Source of the DNA: Alphaproteobacteria bacterium
Lineage (GTDB): Bacteria; Myxococcota_A; UBA796; GCA-2862545
Direction of reading: 5' to 3'
Length of the DNA stretch: 64,000 nucleotides
NCBI GenBank assembly: GCA_020632925.1
Contig: JACKER010000007.1
Span: forward strand, 180,910-244,909
Made by a program: the position numbers and the translations under genes. Position 1 is the first letter of the stretch. Each line of letters opens with the position of its first letter. The notes beneath the pieces were generated by a model. That model worked only from the letters and a program-made list of their open reading frames with translations. It was not told where the DNA came from and ran no database searches. This document shows, piece after piece, positions 2,692 to 32,859 of the stretch.

Positions 2692-2730
2692 TCTTGCCAC
2701 ACGGACCAGCGGTGAGCGTATGCTGGTCGT

Positions 2731-7110: not shown

Positions 7111-7986
7111 TCAGCAGGGGCACTGGTAGAAGGGCGTGGACAGCCCGCCACGTCGCCCGCCGGACACGCTCTCGAGGACCAGCTGCTGCTCGAGCCAGGT
7201 CCGCCCGATCAGCTCGAGCTCGCCGTCGCCCTCCACGTCGAGGATCTCGTCCACGGTGAGGACGTCCCCCAGGTCGCGCTCGACCACTGCGCGCAGGCCG
7301 CCGTTCGGGTCGACCTCGTACAGTCCGAGCACGCTCCCGGTCGGCTCACCACAGCTGCCGTCGAGGTGGGCGTGGGCCATCACTCGGACGACGCCGGTGC
7401 CCGGGTGGCGAAGCAGGCGCACGTCGACGGTCGGCACTCCCTCCAGCGCACCCGAGGCCACGCTGGCGAGCAGCGCGCTGCGTGCGGCCTGCTCCTGCTC
7501 CATCGTCGCGTCCTCCGTGTTCCAGACCACCGGCGCGGCGAGCTCCGCTGCGCGTCCCCAGCGCTCGACGGCGCAACCCTCGAGCTCCGCCGCGACCACG
7601 GCCGCCCCGTGGCGCACCACGAGCTCGGGCGTCCAGCTCGTCACCTCCTCGCCCGCGTAGGTCGGGTCCCCGAACAACCGGTCCAACCGGACGAACGACG
7701 TGACGCGGGCGACGCAGCCGCTGGCCAGTCGGACCGAGGTCAGGCCGGCGAGCTCGGCGGGAACCCGGTCGGTGGACAGCGGGCGCACCAGGGCGAGGTC
7801 GCCCTCGGGTCCCTGGATCAGCTCGCCCGGCTCGGCCAGCTCGGGTGCGGGACCCTCGAACGTCGCCCACACGTGCCCTCCGCCGCTCACCACGAACAGC
7901 AGCCCGGTCGGCGGCGGCGAGGTGATCGGCACGGGGACCGGCGTGTGGGAGAAGCACCCGAGCAGCGTGGGTAGCAGGAGTGGCAT
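7111..7986 (-). CDS. Hypothetical lipoprotein
   Basis: N-terminus MPLLLPTLLGC has a signal peptide and an L-L-G-C lipobox. Composition is natural (D/E/L/V rich). Convergent with pmbA. The overlapping ORFs 7346..7957(-) and 7366..7974(+) have Arg/Pro-rich artefact-like composition. Confidence 0.55.
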   Translation of the reverse strand: MPLLLPTLLGCFSHTPVPVPITSPPPTGLLFVVSGGGHVWATFEGPAPELAEPGELIQGPEGDLALVRPLSTDRVPAELAGLTSVRLASGCVARVTSFVRLDRLFGDPTYAGEEVTSWTPELVVRHGAAVVAAELEGCAVERWGRAAELAAPVVWNTEDATMEQEQAARSALLASVASGALEGVPTVDVRLLRHPGTGVVRVMAHAHLDGSCGEPTGSVLGLYEVDPNGGLRAVVERDLGDVLTVDEILDVEGDGELELIGRTWLEQQLVLESVSGGRRGGLSTPFYQCPC

Positions 7987-8071
7987 GTCGTGTCCTCGGT
8001 TCCGGGCGGGCGGACGACCTTCGTGCTCATTTTCCTTGCGGGAGCGTGTGTGGTGCGTCTATCCTCGGTCG

Positions 8072-10138
8072 ATGTGGTTCCTCACCATCCTGGCATGCAG
8101 TGACCCCTGTGGTGGCCCGCGCTTCGTCGATCAGGACGGTGACGGCTTCGGCCGCGGGAGGGCGGCCTCCTGCGAGGGTCCGGATGTGGTGCGGGTCGGC
8201 GGTGACTGCGACGACCACGACGCGAACGTCCATCCGGGCGCGCCCGAGGTCTGTGACGGCGGTGTCGACGACGACTGCGATCCCGACACCGTCGAGGAGG
8301 AGGTGGACGGCGGGCCGGTGTTCCGTGACACCGACAGGGACGGGTTCGGTGGTGAGCGCGTGCGCGAGGGGTGCCCTGGCGATCGCGAGTCCAGCGTCGG
8401 CGGAGACTGCAACGACCTCCAGCAGGACATCCACCCGGGTGCGGCGGAAGCGTGCAACGACGGGATCGACGACGACTGTGACCCCGCCACGCCCGACGAC
8501 GACGCGCTCGGCCCCCTCTGGTACGTCGATGCGGACCTCGACGGGTTCGGGGATCCGTCGCGTCCGCTGCGGACCTCGTGCCGACCGATCGGAGGCACGT
8601 CGACGGTGGCGACGGATTGCGACGACCAGCTCGCCAGCGTGAACCCCGAGGCTCAGGAGAGCTGCAACGATCGGGACGACGACTGCGATGGGCAGGTCGA
8701 CGACGATGTGTCCTGGTGGGACGTGTTCGAGGATGCCGATGGCGACGGCTGGGGGGCGGTCGCGCTCGGCACCGTCTGCCATGTCGAGCGAGGGCAGGTG
8801 ACACTGTCGGGTGATTGCGACGACACCGAGGCCGCCATCCACCCGCAGGCCGAGGAGGTGTGCAATCACGTCGACGACGACTGCGACGGGCAGGTCGACC
8901 CGGGGTTGTGGGTCGAGCAGTGGCCGGACCTGGACGGCGACCTCCACGGCGACGCGTCGGCGAGCTCGATCGTGGACTGCCGGACGCCGGGCTGGACGAC
9001 GAGCCCGTCGGACTGCGACGACGCCACCCCCACGGTGTACGAGGGGGCGCCCGAGCACTGCGACGGCCTCGACGAGGACTGCGACGGAGCGGTCGACGAG
9101 GACGCGGTCGATCGGCGGTACCTCGACCTGGATGGAGATGGGTTCGGTCGGACGGATCGGTTCGTGACCTCGTGCGACGCCGTGGGGGCGCCGAGCGGAG
9201 GAGACTGCGACGACGACGACGCGACTGCCTACCCGGGGGCGGTGGAGACCTGTGGCGACACCACGTCGGACTGCGATGCGCGCACCGATCCGTGCTCGGA
9301 CACGTGCGTCTGGGCCCGGCGTGGGTCGGACAGCGTCTCGCTGCGGCTGGACGACGGGACGCAGGTGGCGTCACTCCCGTGTTCGATCGACGCGGTGGAT
9401 CGAGCGGGCGTCCCCGTGCGGTCGGACGACCTGCTGGTCCGGTGGACGGACCCCGGCTCGGGCAGCTGCAATGGCGACTGGGTTCCACTCGATCAGGATC
9501 TCCCCGATCCCGTTTCCTGGGAGGTGTGCGTCGGCAACTGCCCGTATTGCGGCAACTACGACTACTACGAATACTACGGCTACTACTACGATTGTGATTG
9601 CACGACCTTCGAGGCCGCGCCCGAGGTGGGTCGGCTCGCGGTGGACGACGCCGGGCACGTCTGGGCGCCATTCGGCTTGCGTGCCGCAGGTGACGAGGAC
9701 GGTGGACTGCTGGAGGTCGTGAACCCGTATGTCGTGGCCCAGCGGATTCCGTTTCCCCAGGCGTCCGCGTCCGACGGGGTGTGGTTGGTGGGCGACGACC
9801 GGTTGTGGCTGGCGCAGGGTCCCGTGCTCGTGGCGTACACGTTGCCGGGGTTGAACCCCATGGCCGACGTGCCCGGTGGTCGCGTCGTCGACGCGCTCGA
9901 CGGGCGGATGGTGGTGCTCGGGGACGGACCCGCGCGGTTCGCGGGCGCTCGGGACGGGGTCGACCTCGGGGTGTTCGAGCCGCTGGACATCACGAGCGCG
10001 CTCGCCGTCGGTCCGGGCGACCTGCTGGCGACGTTGCCGGACGGCTCGGTCGTACGGACGCGCGGTGACGGCGTGGTCGTGCCCTGGCTCCCCGCGGGGT
10101 CGGCGACCGAACTGGTGGGTATCGCTCCCTGCCCGTAG
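8072..10138 (+). CDS. Cys-rich repeat lipoprotein of the MopE-like 'putative metal-binding motif' family
   Basis: N-terminus MWFLTILAC (lipobox). Contains at least 9 repeats of DCDDxDxxxxPGAxExCNGxDDDCDG. The C-terminal repeat-free domain is shared with the downstream paralog. Confidence 0.8.
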   Translation: MWFLTILACSDPCGGPRFVDQDGDGFGRGRAASCEGPDVVRVGGDCDDHDANVHPGAPEVCDGGVDDDCDPDTVEEEVDGGPVFRDTDRDGFGGERVREGCPGDRESSVGGDCNDLQQDIHPGAAEACNDGIDDDCDPATPDDDALGPLWYVDADLDGFGDPSRPLRTSCRPIGGTSTVATDCDDQLASVNPEAQESCNDRDDDCDGQVDDDVSWWDVFEDADGDGWGAVALGTVCHVERGQVTLSGDCDDTEAAIHPQAEEVCNHVDDDCDGQVDPGLWVEQWPDLDGDLHGDASASSIVDCRTPGWTTSPSDCDDATPTVYEGAPEHCDGLDEDCDGAVDEDAVDRRYLDLDGDGFGRTDRFVTSCDAVGAPSGGDCDDDDATAYPGAVETCGDTTSDCDARTDPCSDTCVWARRGSDSVSLRLDDGTQVASLPCSIDAVDRAGVPVRSDDLLVRWTDPGSGSCNGDWVPLDQDLPDPVSWEVCVGNCPYCGNYDYYEYYGYYYDCDCTTFEAAPEVGRLAVDDAGHVWAPFGLRAAGDEDGGLLEVVNPYVVAQRIPFPQASASDGVWLVGDDRLWLAQGPVLVAYTLPGLNPMADVPGGRVVDALDGRMVVLGDGPARFAGARDGVDLGVFEPLDITSALAVGPGDLLATLPDGSVVRTRGDGVVVPWLPAGSATELVGIAPCP

Positions 10139-10171
10139 CGGACGGATGGGCGGATCGAGTAGGGTTTCGGC

Positions 10172-12052
10172 ATGTGGCTCTGGTTGGCCATCGGGTGTGG
10201 GCGAGACTGTACCCCCGAGATCGTGCGCCCCGACCGCGACGGTGACGGGTACGGTCTGGGTGCGCCCTCGTTCGCCTGCGTGGGGCCGGGCCTCGCGAAC
10301 CGCTTCGACGACTGCGACGACACCGATCCGACGATTCACCCCGACGCGGTGGACACGTGCAATGGCGTGGACGACGACTGCGACCCGACCACCCTCGAGG
10401 ACGAGGTGTCCGGCGTGCCGCTGTTCCACGACGGTGACCGTGATGGGTTCGGCGGGGCACCGGCGGGGTCGGGGTGCCCCTCGCGCGGCGTGTCGCTGGT
10501 CGCGGGGGACTGCGACGACCGTGACGAGACCGTGTTCCCGGGTGCCCCCGAGCTGTGCAACGACGGCCGGGACGACGACTGCGACCCGTCCACTCCGGAT
10601 GACGTGGGGCGGTTCGGGACCGAGGGGTACGCGGACGCCGACGACGACGGGTACGGCGACCCCGACCGGCCACTCGGACGGAGCTGCGAGCCGATCGGTG
10701 CGACGACGGGGGACGACTGCGACGACGGGGACCGCCTGGTCCACCCGAGAGCCCGCGAGGTGTGCAACGGCGTCGACGACGACTGCGACGGCCTGACCGA
10801 CGAGGACGTGCTGCCCGAGTGGTGGGCGGACGCCGATGGCGACACCTTCGGGGGCGAGGCGCTCGGTCCGGCGTGTGAGTCTCCCCGGCCCGGCGCGGTG
10901 CACCGTGGCGGCGACTGTGACGACGCGCGGGCCCGGGTGTACGACGGGGCGCCCGAGCACTGCGACGGGACGGACGAGGACTGCGACGGGCTCGTCGACG
11001 AGGACGTTGTGGACCGGTGGTACGCGGACGCCGACGGCGACGGGTGGGGACGGACGGAGGACTGGGTGGCGGGGTGCGATCCGTCGCTCGGCGCGCGCTG
11101 GGGCGGGGACTGCGACGACACCGACCGCAACACGTACCCCGGCGCACCCGAACGCTGCGGCGGGAGCGCGTCGGACTGCGACGGACGCACCGACCCGTGT
11201 GTGGAGGGGTGCGTCTGGTTGGCGAGCGCGACGCACACCTTCGCGGTCCGACCCTCCGACGGCGCCGTGCTCGCGTCGCTGCTCGGCAGGTACGACACGG
11301 TGGATCGGACGGGCGGGCTGTGGACGACGGACGGCACCGATGTGGTGCGGCGGGACCCGGGATCGGGCGTCGCCACCGGGTGGCCGCTCGCCGACGAGCT
11401 GCCGGAGCCGACCACCTGGGTCGAGTGCATTCCGAACTACGGCTCGTGCGACGGAACGTACTACCGCACCGACTGGTACTGCCCCGCTCACCACACGTCG
11501 CCCGAGCTCGGCCGCCTGGCGGTGGGGACGTTCGGCGAGCTGTGGGTCCCCTATGGCGAGCGTGACGAGGTGACGGACTACTACGGGTACAACGTCGGTG
11601 CGATCGAGTCCGGCGCGGGCGGTCTGATGGTGTTCGACACGGTGGATGGGCTGCGGGACGAGCTCGCCTTCCCGTGGGGCACGCTCGCGGCCTCGGCGTG
11701 GCCCGTGGGCCCGGACCGCCTGTGGCTCCAGCAGGACACCGAGCTCGCGGGGCTCGCGCCGGGTGGCGTGGAGGTGGCGCGCGTCGTCGGCGAGCGAGCG
11801 GTGGACACGCTCGACGGGCGGATGGTGGTGCTCGGCGCCGCGGTGCCGCGCTTCGCGGGCGCTCTGGACGGCGCGGACCTCGGGGTGTTCGAGCCGCTCG
11901 ATGCGACGGACGCGCTCGCCCTCGCGCCGGGCGTCGTGCTCGCCACGCTGCCCGACGGTTCGGTGGTGGTCGCGCGTGGGGACGGTGTGGTCCGCGAGCT
12001 GCTGCCCGCGGGATCGGCCAACGGGGTGGTGGGGTTGGGCCCGTGTCCCTGA
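10172..12052 (+). CDS. Cys-rich repeat lipoprotein (MopE-like), tandem paralog of 8072..10138
   Basis: N-terminus MWLWLAIGC (lipobox). Same DCDD...PGA.E.CNG.DDDCDG repeats and a conserved C-terminal domain (...VVLG..PRFAGA.DG.DLGVFEPLD...LATLPDGSVV..RGDGVV..LPAGSA..VG..PCP). Confidence 0.8.
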   Translation: MWLWLAIGCGRDCTPEIVRPDRDGDGYGLGAPSFACVGPGLANRFDDCDDTDPTIHPDAVDTCNGVDDDCDPTTLEDEVSGVPLFHDGDRDGFGGAPAGSGCPSRGVSLVAGDCDDRDETVFPGAPELCNDGRDDDCDPSTPDDVGRFGTEGYADADDDGYGDPDRPLGRSCEPIGATTGDDCDDGDRLVHPRAREVCNGVDDDCDGLTDEDVLPEWWADADGDTFGGEALGPACESPRPGAVHRGGDCDDARARVYDGAPEHCDGTDEDCDGLVDEDVVDRWYADADGDGWGRTEDWVAGCDPSLGARWGGDCDDTDRNTYPGAPERCGGSASDCDGRTDPCVEGCVWLASATHTFAVRPSDGAVLASLLGRYDTVDRTGGLWTTDGTDVVRRDPGSGVATGWPLADELPEPTTWVECIPNYGSCDGTYYRTDWYCPAHHTSPELGRLAVGTFGELWVPYGERDEVTDYYGYNVGAIESGAGGLMVFDTVDGLRDELAFPWGTLAASAWPVGPDRLWLQQDTELAGLAPGGVEVARVVGERAVDTLDGRMVVLGAAVPRFAGALDGADLGVFEPLDATDALALAPGVVLATLPDGSVVVARGDGVVRELLPAGSANGVVGLGPCP

Positions 12053-13578
12053 GGGAGCGCGTGCTGTTCGCTGCGACCGCGGGGCTCCTCGTCCTCGCCG
12101 GGTGGTTGGTGTGGGAGGGGCGGCCTGAGCGCCCGGAGCGCGAGGTGCCCGAGCAGGTCGCGGCGCCGACACCCTGGCCGGTGTACCGTGCACCATACGA
12201 GATCGTGCTGAGCGCGACGCCAGCGCGCATGCCGATACCGGACCACTGCCTGAGCTTCGTACCGTCCGACGGGACGACGACGGCCCTGGCGCTCGCCGAT
12301 CCCCACGCCTGGTGGAACCCACGTCGCCACGCGTCGCCGCGCGTGCGTGCTTGGAGTCGTGCGCTCGGGATGGGCCCCTCGGACCTGGCCCCGTGGGTGG
12401 CTCCCATCGACCCTTGGCTCGCACATGCCCTGGTGGACGAGGAGCGAGCCTGGGTTGGTCTCGACGGTCACGCATACGCCGATGCGGCCGACCGCCTCGA
12501 TTCCCTGCTGGACGCGGACGGACAGATCGCGGATTCGTCGGGCGACCCGGAGCTCGCGCGGGTGACGGATCTGATCGCGCTGGATCTGGAGGCTCAGGGT
12601 TTGGAGAGTCCCCTCGCTCCCACGAACGATGTTCCGACCGCGCTGGATCTGATCCTCGAAGGCTCCGATGCGGAAGCGCAGGTGGGGGTCGCGCGCCTCT
12701 GCTCCGCCGACCTGCTGCTCGATCCGGCCACGCACCGGGCGCTTCGGGAGCGTGTCGCCCGCGCCGCGGATGCGACGATGGCTCTTCGGCTCGTCGAGGT
12801 GGGGCTCCGGTCGGCCTGGAACGCCGGCCAACGAGGGGAGGTGATCGCCTGGGCGGCGAGGGTGGAGCCGACGCTCGACGCTTGCGACGGTTGGGGACCC
12901 TACGCGGAGCTTTCGGAGGTGGTGCTACCGACCTTCGGCGACCTCGGGTCGACCTTCGGGCCGGACGGCGCGCGGGAGGTGGCAGACACCCTCGCAGCGC
13001 GCTGGCCCTGGGCCCACGCCTCGGTGGATTGTGATCTCGCACCTTGCGTATTGCGATTCGGCATGGCGACTGAAGATCAGTCGCGGAACGCCTGGTTCGA
13101 GTCCAGGAACGCGCTGCCGGACGTGGGATGGGCAGGGGTTTCCACCCGTGCGATCTATGACGATCGCGGGCCCTCGCTGGTCATCTACGGCGCAACGGCG
13201 GAGGCGTCGGGTCTCGAACCCGAGACGTTCGTACGGTGGACGGAGTGGCGGAGCTGGCGTTCCCATGTCTGGCCTTGGGAATGTCTGGTCGAGGGCGAGC
13301 GCGCCAAACTGCTCTCGGTGGTTGGGCAACTCGGGTGGCGCGCGATCAGGTCGTGGGAGGAGGACCTGGATCGGGCCGCGCAGGAGTGTCACGCGGTGCT
13401 TCCCCTCAGAGCGTCTGCGCATTTGGACGCCCGCTGGGACGGCGACCGCTGGGCGCTGGACTCGGAGCTTCCGTTCGTCACCTGCGTGGAGGACGCCACG
13501 GTGCTCGGTCCGCCCGAGCCCACGGCGCTGCGGCTCGACTTCCGCGTCGACGACGGAACGGACCTCCACGGTCGCTGA
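12043..13578 (+). CDS. Hypothetical membrane-anchored protein
   Basis: Starts at GTG 12043, overlapping the upstream stop (a second GTG at 12061 is also possible). N-terminal TM helix LFAATAGLLVLAGWLVW. About 510 aa with natural composition and no recognisable motif. Confidence 0.55.
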   Translation: MSLRERVLFAATAGLLVLAGWLVWEGRPERPEREVPEQVAAPTPWPVYRAPYEIVLSATPARMPIPDHCLSFVPSDGTTTALALADPHAWWNPRRHASPRVRAWSRALGMGPSDLAPWVAPIDPWLAHALVDEERAWVGLDGHAYADAADRLDSLLDADGQIADSSGDPELARVTDLIALDLEAQGLESPLAPTNDVPTALDLILEGSDAEAQVGVARLCSADLLLDPATHRALRERVARAADATMALRLVEVGLRSAWNAGQRGEVIAWAARVEPTLDACDGWGPYAELSEVVLPTFGDLGSTFGPDGAREVADTLAARWPWAHASVDCDLAPCVLRFGMATEDQSRNAWFESRNALPDVGWAGVSTRAIYDDRGPSLVIYGATAEASGLEPETFVRWTEWRSWRSHVWPWECLVEGERAKLLSVVGQLGWRAIRSWEEDLDRAAQECHAVLPLRASAHLDARWDGDRWALDSELPFVTCVEDATVLGPPEPTALRLDFRVDDGTDLHGR

Positions 13579-19745: not shown

Positions 19746-19873
19746 CCGACCCCCGGCGCGCGCGTGAGGGGCGGCACGTAACCGCTCGCCTGGATACCCG
19801 CAGCACCATGGCTCCTGCTTCTCGGCGCTCGCGCCAGGTGGACTGGGCGCGCAGCGTCCGCGAAGACCAACAG

Positions 19874-20452
19874 ATGGGCGAACGCGTCCTGTGGGGCCTG
19901 ATCGCCGTCAACGTCGTGGTGTTCGTCCTGTGGTCGCAGGCCCGCGGGTCTCTGCTCCAAGACGTGATGGCGCGGCACTTCCTGGTGTCGGTGGACAGCA
20001 TCGCCGAGCTGCGCTTCTGGACGCTGATCACGGCGGAGTTCAGCCACTACGACCCGAGCCACCTCCTGTTCAACATGGTGGGGCTGTACTTCTTCGGCCG
20101 TCCTGTGGCGCAGGCGCTGGGCTGGAAGGACCTGCTCGGGCTCTACCTGACCGGTGCGCTGGTGGCGTCGCTCGCGCACGTGCTCTACGGCATCGTGACC
20201 GGGGACATGGCGCCTTCGCTGGGTGCCTCGGGCGCGGTGATGGCGATCGGCGTGTGCTTCGCGGCGCTCTACCCGAGGGCGACGCTGCTCGTGTCCTTCG
20301 TCTTCCCCGTCCCCGCGGCGGTGGCGGTGGGCGGGTACGTGCTGCTCGACGTACTGGGCGCGATGACGGGCGGCGGCAACGTCGCCCACGCCGCGCACCT
20401 CGGCGGCGCCCTCATCGGTTTCCTCTGGTGGTACGTCCGGACGAGGCGGTGA
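19874..20452 (+). CDS. Rhomboid family intramembrane serine protease
   Basis: 6 TM helices, the GxSG motif LGASGAVMA and the catalytic His AHLGGALIG. Start could alternatively be 19808. Confidence 0.85.
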   Translation: MGERVLWGLIAVNVVVFVLWSQARGSLLQDVMARHFLVSVDSIAELRFWTLITAEFSHYDPSHLLFNMVGLYFFGRPVAQALGWKDLLGLYLTGALVASLAHVLYGIVTGDMAPSLGASGAVMAIGVCFAALYPRATLLVSFVFPVPAAVAVGGYVLLDVLGAMTGGGNVAHAAHLGGALIGFLWWYVRTRR

Positions 20453-20594
20453 GCCGACGGTGAACTTCGCCGAGAGCTTGCGCTTCGTTCGTCGCGTACA
20501 GGAGTACGCTTCCTCCCTGCAGCGCGGCGCTCTCGACGAAGTTCCCGCGCCGGCTCCCCGCCTCTGAGCGTTGGTGGTGTGCGAGCGTCCGCCG

Positions 20595-20829
20595 CGGGCG
20601 CCCGGCTCGGAGCGGTGTCCCGGGTCGCGAGCGCAGCGAGCCGCAGGCTCACGCGCTCGGGCAGCACCTCCAGCCAGGTGTCAGGACGTGATCCTTGATC
20701 ATTTCGGGCCCTTCCGCCACGGGCGCCCGGCTCGGAGTGGTGTCCCGGGTCGCGAGCGCAGCGAGCCGCAGGCACACGCGCTCGGGCACGACGTCCAGCC
20801 CGGTGTCAGGACGTGATCCTTGATCATTT
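20595..20829. repeat. Tandem direct duplication of about 125 bp (two copies, about 93% identity); each copy ends in the 27-bp motif GTGTCAGGACGTGATCCTTGATCATTT
   Basis: Compared by eye: the first copy ends at 20704, the second runs about 20720..20829. Lies in the intergenic region between the rhomboid gene and the Ser/Thr kinase. Confidence 0.8.
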
Positions 20830-20889
20830 GTGCGGTGGGCACTCTCCGTCCCGTGGCACACGACCACGACCACGACCACGACTCGCCGG

Positions 20890-20916
20890 AAATGATCAAC
20901 GATCACCTCCTGACAC
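20890..20916. repeat. Inverted copy of the 27-bp motif (AAATGATCAACGATCACCTCCTGACAC)
   Basis: Reverse complement of the motif found at 20678..20704 and 20803..20829, with 1-2 mismatches. Confidence 0.75.
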
Positions 20917-20954
20917 CCATGCGCGTCCGCCACCCATGCGCTTCCGCGCTACCT

Positions 20955-20990
20955 CCCGCTCCCGCTCCCGCTCCCGCTCCCGCTCCCGCT
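20955..20990. repeat. Hexanucleotide microsatellite (CCCGCT)6
   Basis: Perfect tandem hexamer. The same unit recurs inside the pseudokinase CDS at 29246..29335. A second microsatellite, (ACGACC) in about 4 copies, lies at 20860..20882. Confidence 0.85.
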
Positions 20991-21001
20991 TCGGGCCCCC
21001 G

Positions 21002-21028
21002 AAATGATCAACGATCACGTCCTGACAC
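21002..21028. repeat. Second inverted copy of the 27-bp motif (AAATGATCAACGATCACGTCCTGACAC), 16 bp upstream of the kinase start
   Basis: Near-exact reverse complement of the direct copies. Confidence 0.75.
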
Positions 21029-21043
21029 CAGGGGAACACCCGG

Positions 21044-23287
21044 GTGTTACCGTCGCCGCCGGGCCCCGGTGGTATCCTCCGCGCCGTGGACCCTGGCCTC
21101 TTCGCCTTCCTCGACCCCGACGTCGCCCGCGAGCTGGGCGAGGCCATGGCCGGCTACCAGGGATCGACGCCCGGGGTGAAGGCCGCCGAGCTCCTGGCCC
21201 GCTGGCATGGCGAGGGGCGCATCCGCACCGACCAGCTCTGCCGCGCGATCGGTGCGCTGCCGGTCGATCTCCCCATGGGTGTGGGGACCGCGGAGCCCGT
21301 GATCCTCTCGATGATCGGCAAGGGCGCCTTCGGCGAGGTCCACCTCGCGCACGACGGCGTCCTGTCGCGCCACATCGCCGTCAAGAAGATGTTCCGCACC
21401 CACGACCCCAAGGCTCGGGAGCGGATCCTCCAGGAGGCGCGGATCGTCGCGCAGCTCGACCACCCCTCGGTCCCGCCGATCCACGCGGTCGAGGTCGGGC
21501 CCGACGGGATCGTCGGTTACGCGATGAAACTCGTCCGCGGGCAGACCCTCAAGGAGTACGTCGGCGAGTGCCGCGCCTTCCACGAGGCCGGGCGGCGACC
21601 CGACGACGACCACGCGCTGCCCGCCCGGCTCGAGATCTTCCTCAAGATCTGCGACGCCGTGCACCACGCTCACAGCCGCGGCGTGCTCCATCGCGACCTC
21701 AAGCCGTCCAACGTCATGATCGGGCAGTTCGGCGAGGTCCTCGTGCTCGACTGGGGCATCGCCCGCGTGCTCGGGCGGGCGGAGGCGAGGCAGGCGGCGC
21801 TCGAGCCCGGGCTCACGGGTCTGTCGATGAACGACGCGGAGACCGTGGCGGGCGACGCCACCGGGACCCCGGCCTACATGTCGCCCGAACAGGCCAACGG
21901 CGCCGACGGCTCGCTCGACGCCCGCAGCGACCAGTACGCCCTCGGCCTGCTCCTCCACGAGCTCGTCACGCTCCAGAAGGCGGTCAAGGACAAGCCGATC
22001 ATGGCGCTGTACCGCGCGTCCCGCGGGGAGCGCGACCCCATGGTGCACGCGTTCGGCGACAAGGTGCCGCCCGAGCTCGTCGCGATCGTCGACAAGGCCA
22101 CCCGCCTCGCGCGCAAGGACCGCTACCCCTCGGTCGACGAGCTCGCCGAGGACGTGCGCCGCTACCTGCGCGACGAGCCGGTCAAGGCCCGCCCGGACAC
22201 CCGGTTCCAGCGCGCGACGCGGTGGATCGGCCGCAACCGCGCCACCACGCTGGCGATGCTGATGAGCTCGGCGCTCGTGCTGGTCGTCGGCTTCGTCATC
22301 GCGCTCCTCGGGACGCTCGTCGTCGTCGAGGGCATGCGCTGGCGGCAGGCCGCTCGCCAGGAGGCGCTCGCCAACCTCGTCTCCGCCGTCTCCAGCCAGG
22401 CGCGCCACATCGACGCGAGCTTCCAGGACGTACAGGGGAGGGCCGGCGGGCTCGCGCTCGCCGCCGATCTCGCCCTGCGTGCGCAGCCCGATCCGGACCT
22501 GCCCATCGTGCGCCCCACCGAGCTCGAGGCGACGGGCACGCTGTTGGAGGCCCCCGGCTACGAGGGGAGGATCAGCCTCGATCACGCGATCACGCACCTC
22601 GCCCCCGGTGTCGAGATGAGCGAGGTCGAACCCGACGTGCGGCGCCTGCTCGCGCTGCAGCCCGAGCTCGAGCGCCTCATCATGGCGAGCCACCCCGTGC
22701 CGCTGCCGCCGGACGAGGCCCGCCAGCGCCTGATCGAGCACGGCAACCCGATCGTGTGGGCCTACGTGGCGCTCGATGACGGCGTCATGGTGGTCTGGCC
22801 CGGGGCCGACGACTACCCGGAGGACTACGACCCGCGCGAGCAGGCCTGGTACACCGGGGCCAGGGGCGCCCATCGGCCCGTGTGGGACCCGGCGAGCCGC
22901 GATCCGTCGGACACGGAGGACCTGGGGCTGCTGGTGACCTCGATGGTGGGCGTGTTCGTGGGCGACCGGCAGGTCGGCGTGGCGGGCGTGGACCTGTCCA
23001 TCGACCACGTCATCGACGACCTGCTGGCGTCCCCTGTCTCCACCGCCGTCGACACGTGGTTGGTCGACGACCAGGGCCGCACCATCGTGACGTCGACGAA
23101 CCGCGACGCGCTGCCGCCCGACTTCCCGTACCCGAGCGTGCTCGAGCAGGTCGCAGCCGGGAGGAGCTCGGGCTCCATCGCGCAGCGCGACGGACGCACC
23201 ACCCGACGCATCACCTGGGCCCACCTGCCGGCGCTCGACTGGACGTACCTGGTGGTCGGCGACGAGCGGGAGCTGGTCGGCTACTGA
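21044..23287 (+). CDS. Ser/Thr protein kinase with a C-terminal extracytoplasmic Cache-type sensor domain
   Basis: Kinase subdomains GKGAFGEV, AVKK, HRDLKPSNVMI, DWGIA and GTPAYMSPE. One TM helix, then a periplasmic domain with the Cache-like YDPREQAWY motif. Confidence 0.88.
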   Translation: MLPSPPGPGGILRAVDPGLFAFLDPDVARELGEAMAGYQGSTPGVKAAELLARWHGEGRIRTDQLCRAIGALPVDLPMGVGTAEPVILSMIGKGAFGEVHLAHDGVLSRHIAVKKMFRTHDPKARERILQEARIVAQLDHPSVPPIHAVEVGPDGIVGYAMKLVRGQTLKEYVGECRAFHEAGRRPDDDHALPARLEIFLKICDAVHHAHSRGVLHRDLKPSNVMIGQFGEVLVLDWGIARVLGRAEARQAALEPGLTGLSMNDAETVAGDATGTPAYMSPEQANGADGSLDARSDQYALGLLLHELVTLQKAVKDKPIMALYRASRGERDPMVHAFGDKVPPELVAIVDKATRLARKDRYPSVDELAEDVRRYLRDEPVKARPDTRFQRATRWIGRNRATTLAMLMSSALVLVVGFVIALLGTLVVVEGMRWRQAARQEALANLVSAVSSQARHIDASFQDVQGRAGGLALAADLALRAQPDPDLPIVRPTELEATGTLLEAPGYEGRISLDHAITHLAPGVEMSEVEPDVRRLLALQPELERLIMASHPVPLPPDEARQRLIEHGNPIVWAYVALDDGVMVVWPGADDYPEDYDPREQAWYTGARGAHRPVWDPASRDPSDTEDLGLLVTSMVGVFVGDRQVGVAGVDLSIDHVIDDLLASPVSTAVDTWLVDDQGRTIVTSTNRDALPPDFPYPSVLEQVAAGRSSGSIAQRDGRTTRRITWAHLPALDWTYLVVGDERELVGY

Positions 23288-23297
23288 GCGCGCGGAG

Positions 23298-24299
23298 GTG
23301 GGCGTGGTCGAGACGTTCCTGCGGCACACGGGGACCGAGGTCCCGCTGCTGTGTGGCGCCATGTACCCGTGCAGCAACCCGGAGCTGGTGGCCGCGGTCT
23401 CCGAGGCAGGCGGCATGGGCATCGTGCAGCCCATCTCCCTGGTCTACGCCCACCGCCGCCGCGATCTGCGCGAGGCCCTGCGGGAGATCAAGCGCCTCAC
23501 CGACAAGCCCATCGGGTTCAACGCGATCGTGGAGCAGTCGAGCCAGGTCTACCTCGACCGCATGAAGACCTGGGTGGACATCGCCCTCGAGGAGGGGGTG
23601 CGGTTCTTCGTCACCGCGCTCGGGAAGCCGGGCTTCGTGGTCGAGAAGGCACACGCCGTCGGCGGCTTCGTCTACCACGACGTGACCGAGCGCCGCTTCG
23701 CGCAGCGGGCCCTGGACGAAGGCGTCGACGGGCTGATCTGCGTCAACGGGAACGCGGGCGGGCACGCCGGCCAGCGCACCCCCGAGGCCCTCTTCGCGGA
23801 GCTCGGGGACCTGGGCGTGCCGCTCGTGTGCGCGGGCGGCGTGGGCGACGAGCGGCGCTTCGTGCAGATGCTCGACCTCGGGTACGCGGGCGTGCAGATG
23901 GGGACGCGGTTCATCGCCACGACCGAGTGCACCGCGCACCCCGACTACAAGGCCGCCATCGTGAAGGCGAAGGCGGACGACATCGTGCTCACCGAGCGTC
24001 TCTCGGGGGTGCCCGTCGCCGTCATCGAGACCGAGTACGTCAAGCGCACGGGGACCCGCGCGAGCCGCCCCATGCGCTGGATGCTCCGTCACCCGCGGTT
24101 CAAGCACTGGGCGCGCTCCTGGTACTCGATGCGCTCGGTGTTCAAGCTCGCGAAGGGGAACCGCCGCGCTGACGCCTACTCGGACTGGCTCCAGGCGGGC
24201 CGGAGCGTCGAGGACGTGCATGCCGTGGTCCCGGCCGGCGACGTGGTGCGCGCCTGCGGCGAGGCGTGGCACGCCCGAGGCGGGCTCCAGGCCCGGTGA
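23298..24299 (+). CDS. Nitronate monooxygenase (NMO, 2-nitropropane dioxygenase/FabK-like FMN TIM-barrel)
   Basis: MYPCSNPELVAAVSEAGGMGIV, the phosphate-binding motif GGVGDERR, and overall NMO-family pattern. Confidence 0.8.
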   Translation: MGVVETFLRHTGTEVPLLCGAMYPCSNPELVAAVSEAGGMGIVQPISLVYAHRRRDLREALREIKRLTDKPIGFNAIVEQSSQVYLDRMKTWVDIALEEGVRFFVTALGKPGFVVEKAHAVGGFVYHDVTERRFAQRALDEGVDGLICVNGNAGGHAGQRTPEALFAELGDLGVPLVCAGGVGDERRFVQMLDLGYAGVQMGTRFIATTECTAHPDYKAAIVKAKADDIVLTERLSGVPVAVIETEYVKRTGTRASRPMRWMLRHPRFKHWARSWYSMRSVFKLAKGNRRADAYSDWLQAGRSVEDVHAVVPAGDVVRACGEAWHARGGLQAR

Positions 24300-27712: not shown

Positions 27713-27758
27713 GCGGCCTCCGCGGTAAGGATAGCGCGGAGGTGGTACTCTCCCCGCG

Positions 27759-29753
27759 ATGGCGGAGTCGAGCATCGCGGGCATGGCCCCCACCGGCCGG
27801 AAGCTCTCCGGACCGGGGATGGAGATCAGGGAGCTTGCGGCGGCCAACGGGCTGAAGCACCTGGCGTTCGTCCACGACGAGTCGCTGCGGTCGCACCCGG
27901 CGCTCGGGCCCGAGGTCCAGGCGCGGCTCGGGTTCATGGAGCAGCCCGAGGTCGGCGGGATGGTGCGGCTGGCCTGGCACGACGGCGCCACCGGCACCTT
28001 CGTGTACCCGACGGGCACGGTCTGGACCGTCGCCGAGGTCGTCCGGCAGTACGCAGACTCCGGGGACGCGCCCGGGGTGAAGGCCGGGCTCGAGCTGGCG
28101 TACCTCGTGGGCGAGACGCTGGTGGAGGCGGCGGAGGCCGGTGTGGGGCAGGGGATCCCGTGCCACGGCAACGTCAGCCCCTGGACGGTCGGGATCAAGG
28201 GCGACGGGCAGCCCGTGGTCATGCTGTACGGGGTGCCCCAGGCGGAGGTCCTGGCCTGGCGCGAGAACCCCAAGCGCGCGCTCTCGGAGGACGCCTTCCG
28301 GTACGCGCCGCCCGAGCGCCTCGAGGGTGATCGTCCCGAGGACGTCTCGTCCGATCTGCTGTCGCTGGCACTCGTCGCCCTCGAGGTGATGGTGGGGCGC
28401 CCGGTCTACGACGGCGTCGTGGCCGACGTTCGGCAACAGGCGAGCCGTGGGGAGGGCGTCCGCCGGCTCTACCAGTGGCGCGAGAAGCTCCCCCAGAACG
28501 TGCGCGAGGTCATGGGTCGCGCCCTCAAGCCGGACCCGGACACCCGCTTCCCGAACGGCATGGAGTTCGTGTATGCGGTGCACGATCTCCTCGGCAGCAT
28601 CGACGTCGAAGGGCCCTCCCTGGTCGAGGTGATGGCGCGCGTGCGCGCATCGGAGCGCCGAGCACGCAGCAGCGGCACTCGGACCGGCGCGCTCACACCG
28701 GAGGAGCTGCGGGAGATCGCGGCCGACCTGGACGAGGTCGAGGACCGACCCCTGCCTCCGCCCCGCCGCGCGCGCCCGGAGGCCGCCGACGAGGACGAGC
28801 CCGCGGAGAAGCCGCGCTGGACCCGGGTCACGCGCAACGCCGACCGCCGCGCCGACGCCGGCGAGACCACGGGCGGTGGTGCGCCCCAGGCCACGGGGCG
28901 CCAGCTGACGGGACGGCGCGAGCGTCCGGCGGTCACGCGCGACGAGCCGCCACCGGGGCAGGCCACCGGCGCGCACGATCGACCGCGTCGGCGGCTGCGC
29001 GGCGACGGCTCGGTGACCGGCACCCAACCGCGCCCCTCGGCCCAGGCGGCCATCGAGGACGACACCGCTGCCCGGGACCGTCTCCGCCGCCGGCTGCGGT
29101 CGTCACGGACCGCCGAGATCCCCGCCCGCCCGGAGCCCCTCGACACGGGGCAGCTCGCGGGCCTCGACCTCGACGCCCCCGACGACGTCGATCTGGAGCC
29201 CGTCACGGGTCGCCCGCCCGCCCTCGACACCGCCGAGGTCATGAGCGCCGCTCCCGCTCCCGCTCCCGCTCCCGCTCCCGCTCCCGCTCCCGCTCCCGTT
29301 CCCGCTCCCGCTCCCGCTCCCGCTCCCGTTCCGGCTCCGGCAGACACGCTGTCGAGGCGGATGCGGCGCGAACGCCCCGAGCCTGCTCCGGCCGTGGAGG
29401 ACGAGCCGCTGCTCGAGGACTCCACTGCGGAGCGGAGCGCTGCCGCCGCGCTGCTCGAGCGCCTGCGGACCTCTGGTGGCCGCCGTCGTCGACGCGCCCC
29501 GGAGCCCGAGCCGCCGGCCCCCGTCGCGGCCGACGACGAGCCGATCACGGCGGTGGTGGACGTGCCGCCGGAGGCGCCCGAGCCCCAGCGTCTCCCGGGT
29601 CGGGTCGTGGCCGAGGCCGGACGCCCGCGCGCGCCCCGCCGACGCCCGCGCCCCCGCCGACGCCCGCGCCCCCGCCGACGCCCCGGCCCGCGGTGGCTGC
29701 GCCGGCCCCAGCGGAGCCTGCGCCCGCCGCGCCCAGGGATGGGGACTGCCTGA
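27759..29753 (+). CDS. Pseudokinase (degenerate protein-kinase fold) with a long Pro/Ala/Arg-rich disordered tail; apparent frameshift near 29600-29700
   Basis: Kinase-like fold retaining FRYAPPERL (APE-like), but with no GxGxxG, HRD replaced by CHGN and DFG replaced by LYG. Contains (AP)n encoded by (GCTCCC)n at 29246..29335. The frame-0 tail becomes PRRRPRP-type, whereas the +2 frame continues as PAPPPTP... into a folded domain ending at 30184. Confidence 0.6.
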   Translation: MAESSIAGMAPTGRKLSGPGMEIRELAAANGLKHLAFVHDESLRSHPALGPEVQARLGFMEQPEVGGMVRLAWHDGATGTFVYPTGTVWTVAEVVRQYADSGDAPGVKAGLELAYLVGETLVEAAEAGVGQGIPCHGNVSPWTVGIKGDGQPVVMLYGVPQAEVLAWRENPKRALSEDAFRYAPPERLEGDRPEDVSSDLLSLALVALEVMVGRPVYDGVVADVRQQASRGEGVRRLYQWREKLPQNVREVMGRALKPDPDTRFPNGMEFVYAVHDLLGSIDVEGPSLVEVMARVRASERRARSSGTRTGALTPEELREIAADLDEVEDRPLPPPRRARPEAADEDEPAEKPRWTRVTRNADRRADAGETTGGGAPQATGRQLTGRRERPAVTRDEPPPGQATGAHDRPRRRLRGDGSVTGTQPRPSAQAAIEDDTAARDRLRRRLRSSRTAEIPARPEPLDTGQLAGLDLDAPDDVDLEPVTGRPPALDTAEVMSAAPAPAPAPAPAPAPAPVPAPAPAPAPVPAPADTLSRRMRRERPEPAPAVEDEPLLEDSTAERSAAAALLERLRTSGGRRRRRAPEPEPPAPVAADDEPITAVVDVPPEAPEPQRLPGRVVAEAGRPRAPRRRPRPRRRPRPRRRPGPRWLRRPQRSLRPPRPGMGTA

Positions 29754-32723: not shown

Positions 32724-32859
32724 GACCCGTTGGAGACGCACACCTGCCGCTGCTCGGTACGCACCTGCGGTATAGTCCGCCCGGTGCCAGCTCCGAGGGA
32801 CGAGTGATCGACGCGAGCGTGCGTCCGCAGCGCGACGGGACGGTGGAGCGGACCACGCG

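What the first reader, a model, noticed from the sequence alone, without database searches (positions are those of the whole stretch)
20453..21043. Repeat-dense 590-bp intergenic region: 125-bp tandem duplication plus four copies (two direct, two inverted) of a 27-bp motif containing TGATCA/GATC
Between the rhomboid gene and the Cache-domain Ser/Thr kinase lies a non-coding stretch with internal structure that no ORF explains. There is a tandem duplication of about 125 bp at about 93% identity. Both copies end in GTGTCAGGACGTGATCCTTGATCATTT, and the reverse complement of that motif recurs twice downstream at 20890 and 21002, the latter 16 bp before the kinase start. This produces two nested pairs of 27-bp inverted repeats. 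Candidate explanations are MITE-like terminal inverted repeats, a duplicated small RNA, or an array of operator sites for a dimeric regulator. Two hexamer microsatellites, (ACGACC) in about 4 copies and (CCCGCT)6, lie between the repeats.
Basis: seen in the sequence. Interest (0 to 1): 0.6.

Follow-up and report, generated by a model that had tools for sequence, protein, structure and literature searches.

The report
Accessory intergenic mosaic of 29-nt repeats
A 584-base stretch between two genes of an uncultured activated-sludge myxobacterium is an optional, fast-changing patchwork of four copies of a strictly conserved 29-base sequence. That sequence also flanks an unrelated gene in sister genomes, so it is most likely a docking site for an unknown DNA-binding protein rather than a jumping-gene end or a small RNA.

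Summary
In detail: a 125-bp tandem duplication (94%), four motif copies (two per strand), two hexamer microsatellites and a 17-nt x2 repeat. None of these is expected by chance.

The conserved unit is an asymmetric 29-nt core, GAAATGATCAAnGATCACsTCCTGACACC, with short CCC...GGG flanks. It has no hairpin of its own.

Related MAGs settle most of the anatomy:
- **G3 (kinase 94% aa identical)** also carries an array upstream of the kinase. It has five copies, and its spacers are unrelated to those of the window.
- **G5 (equally distant)** lacks the whole 584-bp block. Its rhomboid stop is 47 nt from the kinase GTG.
- **A second locus** carries the core in two genomes, 36-37 nt upstream of a membrane-protein gene next to a truncated globin. 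The core is 28/29 identical there although the flanks have decayed.
- **An extra copy** sits between convergent genes in two genomes only.

Copy number appears low. No transposase or recombinase domain was found among the ORFs scanned in the 64-kb window.

The motif pairs are not MITE ends, the unit is not a REP, and nothing supports an sRNA. The best reading is a BIME/NIME-like accessory mosaic built on a protein-recognition repeat. It may regulate or insulate the kinase-NMO operon. Interest is moderate.

The parts
20463..21046 (.). Accessory block of 584 nt that holds all the repeats. It is bounded by GGTG at 20459-20462 and ends in GGTG at 21043-21046.
   Evidence: It is absent from the equally related genome L013, where the rhomboid stop is followed after 47 nt by the kinase GTG. 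BLAST joins window 20462 to 21043 with a 4-nt overlap.
20460..20567 (+). Candidate 35-codon ORF at the left edge of the block (weak).
   Evidence: Listed and called as a gene on Logan contig L001. Its first ~60 nt are nearly identical in L011, the G3 genome. GC by codon phase is 0.74/0.50/0.78. No homologue was found among 1.84 billion representatives.
20588..20712 (.). Tandem unit A (125 nt): an 89-nt spacer, motif copy 1 and an 8-nt joint.
20713..20837 (.). Tandem unit B (similarity ends at about 20829): an 89-nt spacer plus motif copy 2.
   Evidence: The spacers have coding-like GC periodicity on the minus strand (0.83/0.62/0.93; shuffle p 0.006-0.012), but no Pfam hit and no counterpart in L004.
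20677..20705 (-). Core copy c1: GAAATGATCAAGGATCACGTCCTGACACC, pointing towards the rhomboid 3' end.
20802..20830 (-). Core copy c2: CAAATGATCAAGGATCACGTCCTGACACC.
20859..20882 (.). (CACGAC)x4 microsatellite in the 60-nt centre between the divergent copies.
   Evidence: The centre is homologous to L004 155-207 (z 6.7-8.1).
20889..20917 (+). Core copy c3: GAAATGATCAACGATCACCTCCTGACACC, pointing towards the kinase.
   Evidence: By its flanks it is orthologous to L004 copy f3.
20914..20947 (+). 17-nt x2 tandem repeat CACCCATGCGCkTCCGC, which starts inside the 3' end of c3.
   Evidence: The counterpart in L004 is CACCCTTGTGAAGCCG x2 to x5.
20953..20990 (+). (CTCCCG)x6.3 microsatellite. The same hexamer is the 5' flank of the unit at L010 copy 2 and of the decayed relic in L004.
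21001..21029 (+). Core copy c4: GAAATGATCAACGATCACGTCCTGACACC.
   Evidence: In L004 only a decayed 3' remnant remains (GCTCCCGC-TCGTCACCTTCCAGAACACC).
21035..21048 (.). Palindrome AACACC-CG-GGTGTT, which straddles the right junction of the block.
   Evidence: I8. It is kept as AACACC-GT-GGTGTT in L004. Only the GGTGTT half exists in L013.
21047..21085 (+). Proximal segment shared by all three genomes. It contains TATCCT (21073-21078), 7 nt before GTG 21086, and is the probable core promoter of a leaderless-type kinase-NMO transcript (inference).
21086..23287 (+). Ser/Thr kinase with a dCache_1 domain (733 aa), followed 10 nt later by a nitronate-monooxygenase gene (23298-24299). Context only.
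19808..20452 (+). Rhomboid protease gene. Context only.

Best explanation
**What it is (largely shown).** Window 20463-21046 is an accessory, rapidly remodelled intergenic mosaic, comparable in architecture to BIME or NIME arrays. It is built on a lineage-specific, low-copy, asymmetric repeat. The repeat has a 29-nt core, GAAATGATCAAnGATCACsTCCTGACACC, usually flanked by CCC(G)...(W)GGG.

**How it got this way (inferred from the patterns seen).** The unit behaves as a discrete module. It is copied to new sites, then amplified locally by tandem duplication (125-nt unit here, 54-nt unit in the sister genome) and by slippage (microsatellites, 16-17-nt iterations of its 3' end). The DNA between copies turns over freely.

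**How it works (inferred).** All 29 positions are held constant across genomes that differ by 10-15% in coding DNA. The unit has internal TGAyCA-like repeats (TGATCA, nGATCA, CTGACA) but no hairpin. It is therefore most likely the recognition site of a dedicated sequence-specific DNA-binding protein.

In this window, two sites in each orientation sit upstream of a kinase-NMO operon whose own core promoter is the 40-nt segment shared with the array-less relative. The array would then act as an add-on regulatory or insulating platform in one of three ways:
- recruitment of a bound protein;
- a protein roadblock;
- 28-35-bp RNA hairpins in transcripts reading through from the rhomboid gene.

Any of these would uncouple the kinase from the rhomboid gene, which sits directly upstream of it in genome G5.

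The same site lies 36-37 nt upstream of a membrane-protein gene beside a truncated-globin/reductase pair. This suggests a small regulon.
For: **The repeats are real.**

**The array is present in a sister genome with different copy number and spacers.**
- L004 (kinase 94% aa, 89.6% nt identical) has 2 leftward and 3 rightward copies.
- Its spacers are not alignable with the window (z about 1). The centre, the tail of c3 and the proximal promoter are alignable.

**The block is dispensable.** L013 lacks all 584 nt, and G1, G3 and G5 are about equidistant at 88-90% nt identity.

**There is a second locus, and the site there is under selection.**
- The core is 28/29 identical between L003 and L010.
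- It lies 37 and 36 nt before the conserved, annotated GTG of the same gene.
- The 36 nt between the core and the start are about 55% identical, and the upstream spacer differs by more than 100 nt of indels.

**The unit comes and goes as a module.** L010 and L012 carry a further copy within a 44-nt insert between convergent genes. L003 lacks it.

**Copies evolve in concert within a genome.** Forward copies read AACGATCAC in the window and AATCGTCAC in L004.

**Copy number appears low.**
- There is one strict match among 185,579 species-representative genomes.
- There are no true matches in JGI metagenomes, viral contigs, plasmids or phages.
- There are no other full or half sites in about 110 kb of this clade.
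- Six-frame peptide words of the motif are absent from 5.8 billion proteins.

**The unit is not a hairpin.** Its DNA fold is -2.3 kcal/mol, z +0.4.

**No mobility enzyme is encoded nearby.** No transposase or recombinase Pfam domain was found in the ORFs scanned across the window.
Against: - No binding protein has been identified.
- Identity between copies at different loci (37/39 nt including flanks) is higher than ordinary operator sites need. It fits recent copying as well as it fits selection.
- The kinase clearly does without the array in G5. The kinase-proximal copy has decayed in G3, and the distance to the start is not fixed (56 vs 123 nt).
- The leftward copies, and the copy between convergent genes in L010/L012, have no gene to regulate.
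- Genome-wide copy number could not be measured for the window's own genome, which is not in the searchable collections.
- The one whole-genome count rests on a strict 22-base pattern in an incomplete MAG.
- The leaderless promoter reading is by eye only. The consensus scan found nothing.
Confidence: 0.45

Rival explanations
1. Selfish short interspersed repeat. The ~37-41-nt unit (core plus CTCCC/GGGAG-type mini inverted flanks) is a non-autonomous element, copied in trans by a transposase or recombinase encoded elsewhere (REP/RAYT-like, dRS3/NIME-like or ultra-short MITE). The array is an insertion hot spot with no host function.
For: - The unit shows presence/absence differences (L010/L012 vs L003).
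- The whole block is present or absent between relatives.
- Copies occur in both orientations with unrelated spacers.
- One copy overlaps a stop codon between convergent genes.
- Copies at different loci are near-identical, flanks included.
- Independent assemblies break in or next to the repeats.
Against: - The unit has no stable palindrome.
- Copy number appears very low.
- No TSD or substantial TIR is seen.
- The orthologous copy is 28/29 conserved while its flanks decayed, which a neutral relic would not show.
- No transposase or RAYT domain is found in the window.
- Most local copy gain is plain tandem duplication.
Confidence: 0.25
2. RNA-level element. In transcripts that read through from the rhomboid gene, the opposed copies pair into nested 28-35-bp hairpins. 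These would act as a processing, stabilising or terminating structure between rhomboid and kinase. Alternatively, the 29-mer is a UTR motif read by an RNA-binding protein or an sRNA.
For: - The c2/c3 hairpin folds at -60 to -68 kcal/mol, z about -6. The whole region folds at z -7.
- All gene-proximal copies are in the sense orientation: c3 and c4, L003, and both copies in L010, one 5' and one 3' of the same gene.
- In G5 the two genes are 47 nt apart, so co-transcription is plausible.
Against: - The arms are not kept complementary. The variable position gives a C-C mismatch in every pair here, and the central pair in L004 is only 78% complementary with no compensatory changes.
- Solo copies cannot form the hairpin.
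- There is no Rfam family and no terminator-like site.
- The unit itself is unstructured.
Confidence: 0.1
3. Site-specific recombination sites. The 29-mers would be targets of a recombinase, so that segments between them invert (a phase switch upstream of the kinase) or are exchanged or excised as cassettes.
For: - The sites are about 29 nt long and strictly conserved.
- Both orientations occur, and the 'modules' between sites vary.
- In L010 a gene is flanked by two direct copies 651 nt apart.
Against: - No spacer of one genome matches a spacer of the other in reverse orientation.
- The site lacks the two inverted arms around a 6-8-nt spacer that are typical of tyrosine-recombinase cores, and it lacks a 12-2-12 serine-recombinase layout (from the sequence; layouts from my own knowledge).
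- The array-less genome retains no single site, whereas excision would leave one.
- No recombinase domain is found in the window.
Confidence: 0.07
4. Neutral debris. The repeats are just duplication and slippage products in a recombination-prone spacer, and the motif has no function.
For: Tandem duplications, microsatellites and 16-17-nt iterations abound. The block is dispensable.
Against: The same 29-mer is found at an unlinked locus in three other genomes and is conserved there against decayed flanks. Cores stay intact while the spacers are replaced.
Confidence: 0.05
5. Polar replication-fork barriers (Ter-like). These would be asymmetric low-copy sites in two opposed groups, forming a fork trap.
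For: The sites are asymmetric, about 29 nt long, low in copy number and indifferent to gene context. The inner opposed pair is 60 nt apart here and 59 nt in L004. The B. subtilis TerI/TerII pair has a similar spacing of 59 bp (from my own knowledge).
Against: Cumulative GC skew keeps rising across the 64-kb window, with no lasting sign change at 20.7 kb. The cluster is absent from an equally related genome. No candidate terminator protein was found.
Confidence: 0.03
6. Coding. The motif would be the start of a peptide or protein (ATG ATC AAy GAT CAC GTC CTG ACA = MINDHVLTP), for example a leader peptide or a shared N-terminus.
For: All window copies carry the ATG. In L003 it is in frame with the downstream gene.
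Against: - In L010 the ATG is AAG.
- The annotated starts of P0121 and P0122 are the downstream GTG.
- At c4 the frame is out of phase with the kinase and decays into an Arg/Pro-rich off-frame product.
- The codons GAT and ACA are atypical for a 73% GC genome.
- No protein in 5.8 billion carries these words.
Confidence: 0.01

Closest known systems
BIMEs (clusters of REP sequences) of enterobacteria
   Same: Short (~35 nt) extragenic repeats clustered in both orientations. They are separated by variable linker motifs, located between genes including convergent 3' ends, vary between strains, and can form long hairpins in read-through RNA (properties from my own knowledge).
   Different: The REP unit is itself a GC-rich imperfect palindrome present in hundreds of copies and linked to RAYT transposases. 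This unit is asymmetric and relatively AT-rich, has no stable hairpin, and appears to be present in only a handful of copies.
Neisseria intergenic mosaic elements (NIMEs: RS units bounded by 20-nt dRS3 repeats)
   Same: Strictly conserved short repeats bracket variable 50-150-nt segments in intergenic arrays that differ between close strains (from my own knowledge). The pattern here is the same: conserved cores with unrelated 25-130-nt spacers between G1 and G3.
   Different: dRS3 has terminal inverted symmetry, is abundant, and serves as an integration target for filamentous prophages. None of this is shown here.
MITEs
   Same: Inverted copies of a ~28-35-nt sequence bracket short segments (116 and 359 bp) in an intergenic region.
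   Different: No TSD is present, the interior is not conserved, and the 'element' as a whole is not repeated anywhere. Solo copies are conserved, and same-strand copies derive from tandem duplication.
Operator arrays of heptad-binding repressors (omega of pSM19035, CtsR) and multi-site regulatory regions
   Same: Contiguous 7-nt direct repeats (AAyGATC x2). Several sites occur in direct and inverted orientation upstream of a gene, and one target gene has the site at a fixed distance from its start. The comparison itself is from my own knowledge.
   Different: The conserved site is much longer (29 nt). It also occurs where there is nothing to regulate, the array is dispensable, and no cognate regulator has been identified.
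Mycobacterial interspersed repetitive units (MIRU-VNTR)
   Same: Low-copy (tens) intergenic units with variable tandem copy number between strains, sometimes overlapping the stop codon of the upstream gene (from my own knowledge; compare L010 copy 2).
   Different: MIRUs are strictly head-to-tail, of uniform period, and lie within operons. Here the spacers are heterogeneous and both orientations occur.

Membership tests
REP / BIME | The unit is an imperfect palindrome that forms a stable stem-loop. | tested here: not met
   The unit folds as DNA at -2.3 to -4.9 kcal/mol, z +0.9 to -0.5 against shuffles. Only a 5-bp TGATC/GATCA stem forms.
REP / BIME | Tens to hundreds of dispersed extragenic copies per genome. 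| tested here: inconclusive
   There is one strict-pattern hit in the only clade genome held in genome contigs, and no other site in about 110 kb of clade DNA. The window's own genome could not be scanned, and degenerate copies would escape the strict pattern.
REP / BIME | Clusters of copies in alternating orientation with variable linkers. | tested here: met
   2+2 copies here and 2+3 in L004, with unrelated spacers.
REP / BIME | An associated RAYT (Y1 HUH transposase) gene in the genome. | not testable with these tools
   No such Pfam domain was found in the ORFs scanned in the 64-kb window.
MITE | Terminal inverted repeats bounding a conserved element that recurs as a whole. | tested here: not met
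   Only the ~29-37-nt unit recurs. The interiors of the inverted pairs are not conserved between genomes, and solo units exist.
MITE | A target-site duplication flanking the element. | tested here: not met
   No direct repeat flanks the c2/c3 or c1/c4 pairs. The 584-nt block is flanked by GGTG, but it has no TIR, and microhomology-mediated deletion explains the repeat equally well.
Transcription-factor operator / regulon site | Conserved at orthologous promoters relative to the flanking non-coding DNA, at a fixed distance from the gene. | tested here: met
   L003 vs L010: 28/29 identical, 37 vs 36 nt from the GTG, flanks about 55% identical or indel-ridden. At the kinase locus this feature is not met: distances are 56 vs 123 nt and the array is absent in L013.
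Transcription-factor operator / regulon site | Cognate DNA-binding protein identified or encoded nearby. | tested here: not met
   No HTH or other DNA-binding Pfam domain was found in the neighbours scanned at either locus. Several neighbours have no Pfam hit at all.
Invertible promoter switch (inverton) | A segment between inverted repeats found in both orientations, with an invertase nearby. | tested here: not met
   No reverse-orientation spacer matches were found between G1 and G3, and no recombinase domain in the window. Read-level data were not available.
Known structured RNA (Rfam) | A match to a covariance model, or a fold better than shuffles with covariation. | tested here: not met
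   No relevant Rfam match at E<=10; the only two hits are chance-level and lie inside the rhomboid gene. The 125-nt units give z -0.5 to -1.75. The only strong folds are the trivial inverted-repeat hairpins, and these show no compensatory changes.
CRISPR array | Direct repeats only, with regular repeat-spacer period. | tested here: not met
   Both orientations occur, and start-to-start distances are 125 and 112 nt here and 54 and 161 nt in L004.
Replication terminator (Ter) sites | Located at the replication terminus, where the GC skew changes sign. | tested here: not met
   Cumulative GC skew continues to rise across the window. Only 64 kb of a 1.13-Mb contig could be seen.

The most novel reading that the evidence does not exclude
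The 29-mer may be the polar recognition site of a dedicated, still unknown protein system of this uncultured Myxococcota clade. One possibility is a recombination or targeting system that inserts, deletes and exchanges short DNA modules at these sites. That would explain conserved sites with unrelated, partly coding-like spacers and precise gain or loss of units. The other possibility is a Ter/Tus-like polar barrier set. Either would be a new site-plus-protein system rather than a regulon or a selfish repeat.
Probability: 0.08. Interest if true: 0.7.

Novelty: new variant of a known kind. Interest (0 to 1): 0.36.

Why it matters
Short repeat families of uncultured Myxococcota are essentially uncharted. 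This one combines three properties that are usually found apart:
- operator-like purifying selection on an asymmetric 29-nt site;
- module-like gain and loss of the unit;
- BIME/NIME-like mosaic arrays that differ completely between genomes only about 10% apart.

If the site belongs to a regulator, it defines a small clade-specific regulon. That regulon would link a Cache-sensor Ser/Thr kinase-nitronate monooxygenase operon with a membrane-protein gene beside a truncated globin and its reductase. A nitrosative or oxidative stress theme is suggested by this gene content only. If the site is a mobile unit, it is an unusually short, non-palindromic one.

In practical terms, the repeats break short-read assemblies exactly here. 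The array is also a ready-made strain marker for this lineage in activated sludge.

Tried and rejected
- **Motif as start codon or leader peptide.** Rejected: the ATG is AAG at the orthologous L010 site, and it is out of frame with the kinase.
- **Sigma-70, sigma-54 or ECF promoter inside the motif.** The consensus scan found nothing. Inspection by eye found no hexamer pair with workable spacing in either orientation.
- **Rfam and sRNA.** No match, and the units are not better folded than shuffles.
- **Mobile-element databases.** No similarity in plasmids, phages or viral contigs.
- **JGI metagenomes.** The strict pattern gave 0 hits. The tolerant pattern gave 3 chance hits inside coding sequence of low-GC contigs.
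- **Six-frame peptide words of the motif used as a proxy search in 5.8 billion proteins.** Only 2 word-sharing candidates, none scored.
- **Shufflon or inversion test on spacers.** Negative.
- **Origin of the 89-nt spacer.** It has coding-like GC periodicity but no Pfam hit and no source in any fetched DNA. This remains unexplained.
- **dif/Xer, hix/res, parS, DnaA-box, IHF, FNR/CRP, NsrR, matS and Noc sites.** Compared from memory; none fits beyond a few bases. These were not formal tests.
- **Terminus or fork-trap idea.** GC skew does not switch in the window.
- **sORF 20460-20567.** No homologues.
- **Retrieving the second locus or more DNA from the window's own genome.** Failed, because its proteins are not on record in the contig index.
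- **Literature.** Full-text search for the motif strings found only unrelated primer sequences.
Full report
**1.

Reading 20200-21300, the repeat finder and Tandem Repeats Finder give the following:
- a 125-nt unit repeated 1.9 times (20588-20829, 94% matches);
- four copies of GGTGTCAGGAsGTGATCsTTGATCATTT: two on the + strand at the ends of the tandem units (20677, 20802) and two on the - strand (20890, 21002);
- nested inverted pairs of 28-35 nt at 91-94% complementarity;
- (CACGAC)x4, (CTCCCG)x6.3 and a 17-nt x2 repeat.

Dinucleotide-preserving shuffles expect no match to the motif. The 64-kb window has no further copy at up to 7 substitutions, nor by full-length or half-site weight matrices.

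The flanking genes are a rhomboid protease and a Pkinase + dCache_1 protein, followed 10 nt later by a nitronate monooxygenase gene.

One correction concerns the kinase start. The 733-aa product recorded for this genome, and the annotated starts in two relatives, correspond to GTG 21086. This is 56 nt beyond copy 4, not 16. The long ORF that begins at the ATG inside copy 4 is an off-frame artefact.

**2. Whose genome this is.**

The window's rhomboid and kinase are MCB9683579.1 and MCB9683580.1, on a 1.13-Mb contig of a MAG labelled "Alphaproteobacteria bacterium". Its relatives carry the isolate name HK-STAS-MYXO or the label Myxococcales. The HK-STAS-MYXO series are Myxococcota MAGs from a hybrid long/short-read assembly of Shatin activated sludge (PMC8518188).

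I call the genomes:
- **G1:** the window.
- **G2:** HK-STAS-MYXO-38, locus L003.
- **G3:** GCA_020430605.1, loci L004, L010 and L011.
- **G4:** GCA_020430625.1, locus L012.
- **G5:** a Logan contig from SRR14932560, locus L013.

Coding DNA of G1, G3 and G5 is mutually 88-90% identical. G2 and G3 are 85-90% identical. The window's own genome is not in the searchable collections, so its genome-wide copy number could not be measured.

**3. The same locus in relatives.**

In G3 the 574 nt upstream of the kinase also hold the motif:
- two leftward copies, one cut by the contig start and one decayed at 6 positions;
- three identical rightward copies, two of which are a 54-nt tandem duplication.

Three parts align with the window:
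- the 60-nt centre (CGACCACGACCA..., z 6.7-8.1);
- copy c3 with its 16-17-nt iterated tail;
- the last ~50 nt before the kinase (90% identical).

The spacers between the leftward copies, although about 125 nt apart in both genomes, are unrelated (z about 1). Window copy c4 survives in G3 only as a 3' remnant next to a single CTCCCG.

Within each genome the same-strand copies share variants (AACGATCAC in G1, AATCGTCAC in G3). They were therefore duplicated or homogenised after the split.

G5 is equally distant from both, and it has none of this. Its rhomboid stop is followed after 47 nt by the kinase GTG. The junction reads ...CCGGTG|TTACCGTCG.... Relative to G5, window 20463-21046 is a 584-nt block bounded by GGTG on both sides. 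What all three genomes share is GGTGTTACCGTCG...GGTGGTATCCTCsGCGCC-GTG. This includes a TAnnnT hexamer 7 nt before the start codon and no Shine-Dalgarno-like sequence. I infer that this is the kinase's own, possibly leaderless, promoter. That is inference: the consensus scan found no promoter.

Two conclusions follow. The repeat block is accessory, and its interior turns over much faster than the genes around it. Independent assemblies break at about 20528-20530 (L001, L011) and inside motif copies (L002, L004), as expected for a repeated or polymorphic stretch.

**4. A second, unlinked locus.**

The single hit among 185,579 species-representative genomes was G2. There the core, with 37/39 nt identical to window copy c1 including flanks, lies between a divergently transcribed truncated-globin gene and a gene for a small membrane-anchored protein without Pfam domains.

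The orthologous spacer of G3 has the core at the same place:
- the core is 28/29 identical;
- it lies 36 vs 37 nt before the conserved, annotated GTG;
- the 36 nt between the core and the start are only about 55% identical;
- the upstream spacer differs by more than 100 nt of indels.

This is direct evidence for purifying selection on the whole core. The one difference turns the motif's ATG into AAG, which disposes of the idea that the motif is a start codon or leader peptide.

G3 and G4 carry a further copy at the 3' end of the same gene. It supplies the stop codon (…PSPGNDQ*) and lies 10 nt from the convergent AIM24 gene. It sits within a 44-nt insert, CTCCCG-core-TGGGAGGAG, where G2 has four bases, and next to a ~580-nt gene that G3 lacks. 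The unit can therefore appear or disappear as a discrete module, in a place where no promoter is needed.

**5. Anatomy of the unit.**

Twelve copies from four genomes give the core GAAATGATCAAnGATCACsTCCTGACACC, usually between CCC(G) and (W)GGG. Its features are as follows:
- It is relatively AT-rich in a 73% GC genome.
- It contains two contiguous heptads (AAyGATC), which can also be read as a TGATC-N3-GATCA palindrome, and a third related hexamer (CTGACA) 10-11 nt further on.
- It is otherwise asymmetric and does not fold (-2.3 kcal/mol, no better than shuffles).
- The first GATC is present in every copy. The second is lost in 3 of 11 full-length copies, so a Dam-type methylation switch is not a conserved feature.

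**6. What it is not.**

- **Not MITE ends.** Solo conserved units exist, there is no TSD, the interiors are not conserved, and same-strand copies come from tandem duplication.
- **Not a REP.** It has no palindrome, and its copy number appears low.
- **Not a known or evident RNA.** There is no relevant Rfam match. The 125-nt units are not better folded than shuffles. The only strong folds are the inverted-repeat hairpins (z -6 to -7), and their arms show uncompensated differences (78% complementarity for the central pair in G3).
- **Not an inversion switch on present evidence.** No spacer appears in reverse orientation between genomes. No recombinase or transposase domain was found in the ORFs scanned across the window.
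- **Not a terminus fork trap on present evidence.** GC skew does not change sign here.
- **Not present in mobile-element or metagenome collections.** No similarity in plasmids, phages, viral contigs or JGI metagenomes. No called protein carries the motif's six-frame words. No paper mentions it.

**7. Best explanation.**

The block is a BIME/NIME-like intergenic mosaic built on a low-copy, clade-specific repeat. The 29-nt core of that repeat is held constant by selection.

The steps shown are:
- conservation of the core against its flanks;
- gain and loss of the unit and of the whole block;
- local tandem amplification;
- turnover of the spacers;
- low copy number in the DNA that could be inspected.

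The steps inferred are as follows. A 29-nt asymmetric sequence with internal hexamer repeats and no fold is most simply the footprint of a sequence-specific DNA-binding protein or protein complex. At the membrane-protein gene its fixed position just upstream of the start looks regulatory. At the kinase, two sites per orientation were added upstream of a self-sufficient core promoter. There they would recruit or block something, or, in read-through RNA, fold into long hairpins. Any of these would uncouple the kinase-NMO operon from the rhomboid gene, to which it is directly joined in G5.

I put this at 0.45. The main rival, at 0.25, is that the unit is a selfish short repeat copied in trans with no host role. 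That rival explains the module-like indels and the very high inter-copy identity better. It explains the orthologous conservation and the low copy number worse. The two readings are not exclusive, because REPs and dRS3 are also protein-recognition sites.

The gene content of the two loci is a truncated globin with a ferredoxin-reductase-type partner at one, and a nitronate monooxygenase at the other. This hints at nitrosative or oxidative stress, but that is a lead from gene names only.

**8. Unexplained.**

- The 89-nt spacer of the 125-nt unit has coding-like GC periodicity on the minus strand (0.83/0.62/0.93). It has no homologue, and 6 of 29 codons differ between the two copies.
- The origin of the block's left part is unknown. 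This part includes a 35-codon ORF that is nearly identical in G3 over the ~60 nt visible there, but has no homologue anywhere.
- The palindrome AACACC-NN-GGTGTT straddles the right junction. Its right half belongs to the ancestral spacer.
- The 16-17-nt iterations that start in the 3' end of the rightward copies also have no explanation.

**9. Verdict.**

This is a real, non-random and evolutionarily dynamic feature. It is a new variant of a known kind of bacterial repeat architecture, in a poorly known lineage. It is of moderate interest until the protein that reads the 29-mer is found.

Noticed in passing
window 20460-20567 (+): A 35-codon ORF (MNFAESLRFVRRVQEYASSLQRGALDEVPAPAPRL) starts 8 nt after the rhomboid stop. 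It was called as a gene on an independent Logan contig and is nearly identical in G3 over the ~60 nt visible there. It is absent from G5 and has no homologue among 1.84 billion representative proteins.
   Followed up: partly
window 20443-20477 and 20529-20564: A 36-nt inverted repeat (86%) spans the rhomboid stop and the small ORF. Two independent assemblies (L001, L011) end at window ~20528-20530, right at its second arm.
   Followed up: no
window 21035-21048 and 21073-21078: The palindrome AACACC-CG-GGTGTT is kept with a changed centre in G3 and is only half present in G5. A TATCCT hexamer lies 7 nt before the kinase GTG and is conserved in G1, G3 and G5. The membrane-protein gene of L003 and L010 likewise has TACGCT/TAGGCT 5-6 nt before its GTG. 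Together these suggest leaderless transcripts in this lineage.
   Followed up: partly
window 29248-29340: A long (CTCCCG)n hexamer array, the same unit as the microsatellite next to motif copy c4, lies inside a large ORF (27735-29753) that has no Pfam hit.
   Followed up: no
window 7966-13341: A 5.4-kb segment holding two MopE-type copper-binding repeat proteins (7661-10138, 10163-12052) is replaced by about 570 nt in the syntenic G3 contig L011. A MopE gene also lies beside the globin locus in L010 (295-1764).
   Followed up: partly
L010 4167-4215 vs L003 1900-2500: G3 (and G4, L012) lacks a ~580-nt coding segment present in G2 downstream of the membrane-protein gene. The deletion junction shows GTCC microhomology, and the 44-nt motif-bearing insert sits right next to it, supplying the stop codon.
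   Followed up: partly
window 20588-20676 and 20713-20801 (minus strand): The spacers of the 125-nt units show codon-like GC periodicity (0.83/0.62/0.93), as if derived from a gene fragment (…LDVVPERVCLRLAALATRD…). There is no Pfam hit and no source in any fetched DNA.
   Followed up: partly
window, whole; L003 record title: The source MAG and HK-STAS-MYXO-38 are labelled 'Alphaproteobacteria bacterium' in NCBI, although the isolate names and the nearest relatives say Myxococcota/Myxococcales. The NCBI label is probably wrong.
   Followed up: partly
window 2716-4362, 32776-34560, 45113-47044, 47408-49909, 49594-56019: The window is rich in signalling genes. It holds a hybrid histidine kinase, two further Ser/Thr kinases (one in a 2141-codon ORF with two kinase-domain matches), a GAF-PAS histidine kinase and an HK-receiver-Hpt protein.
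   Followed up: no
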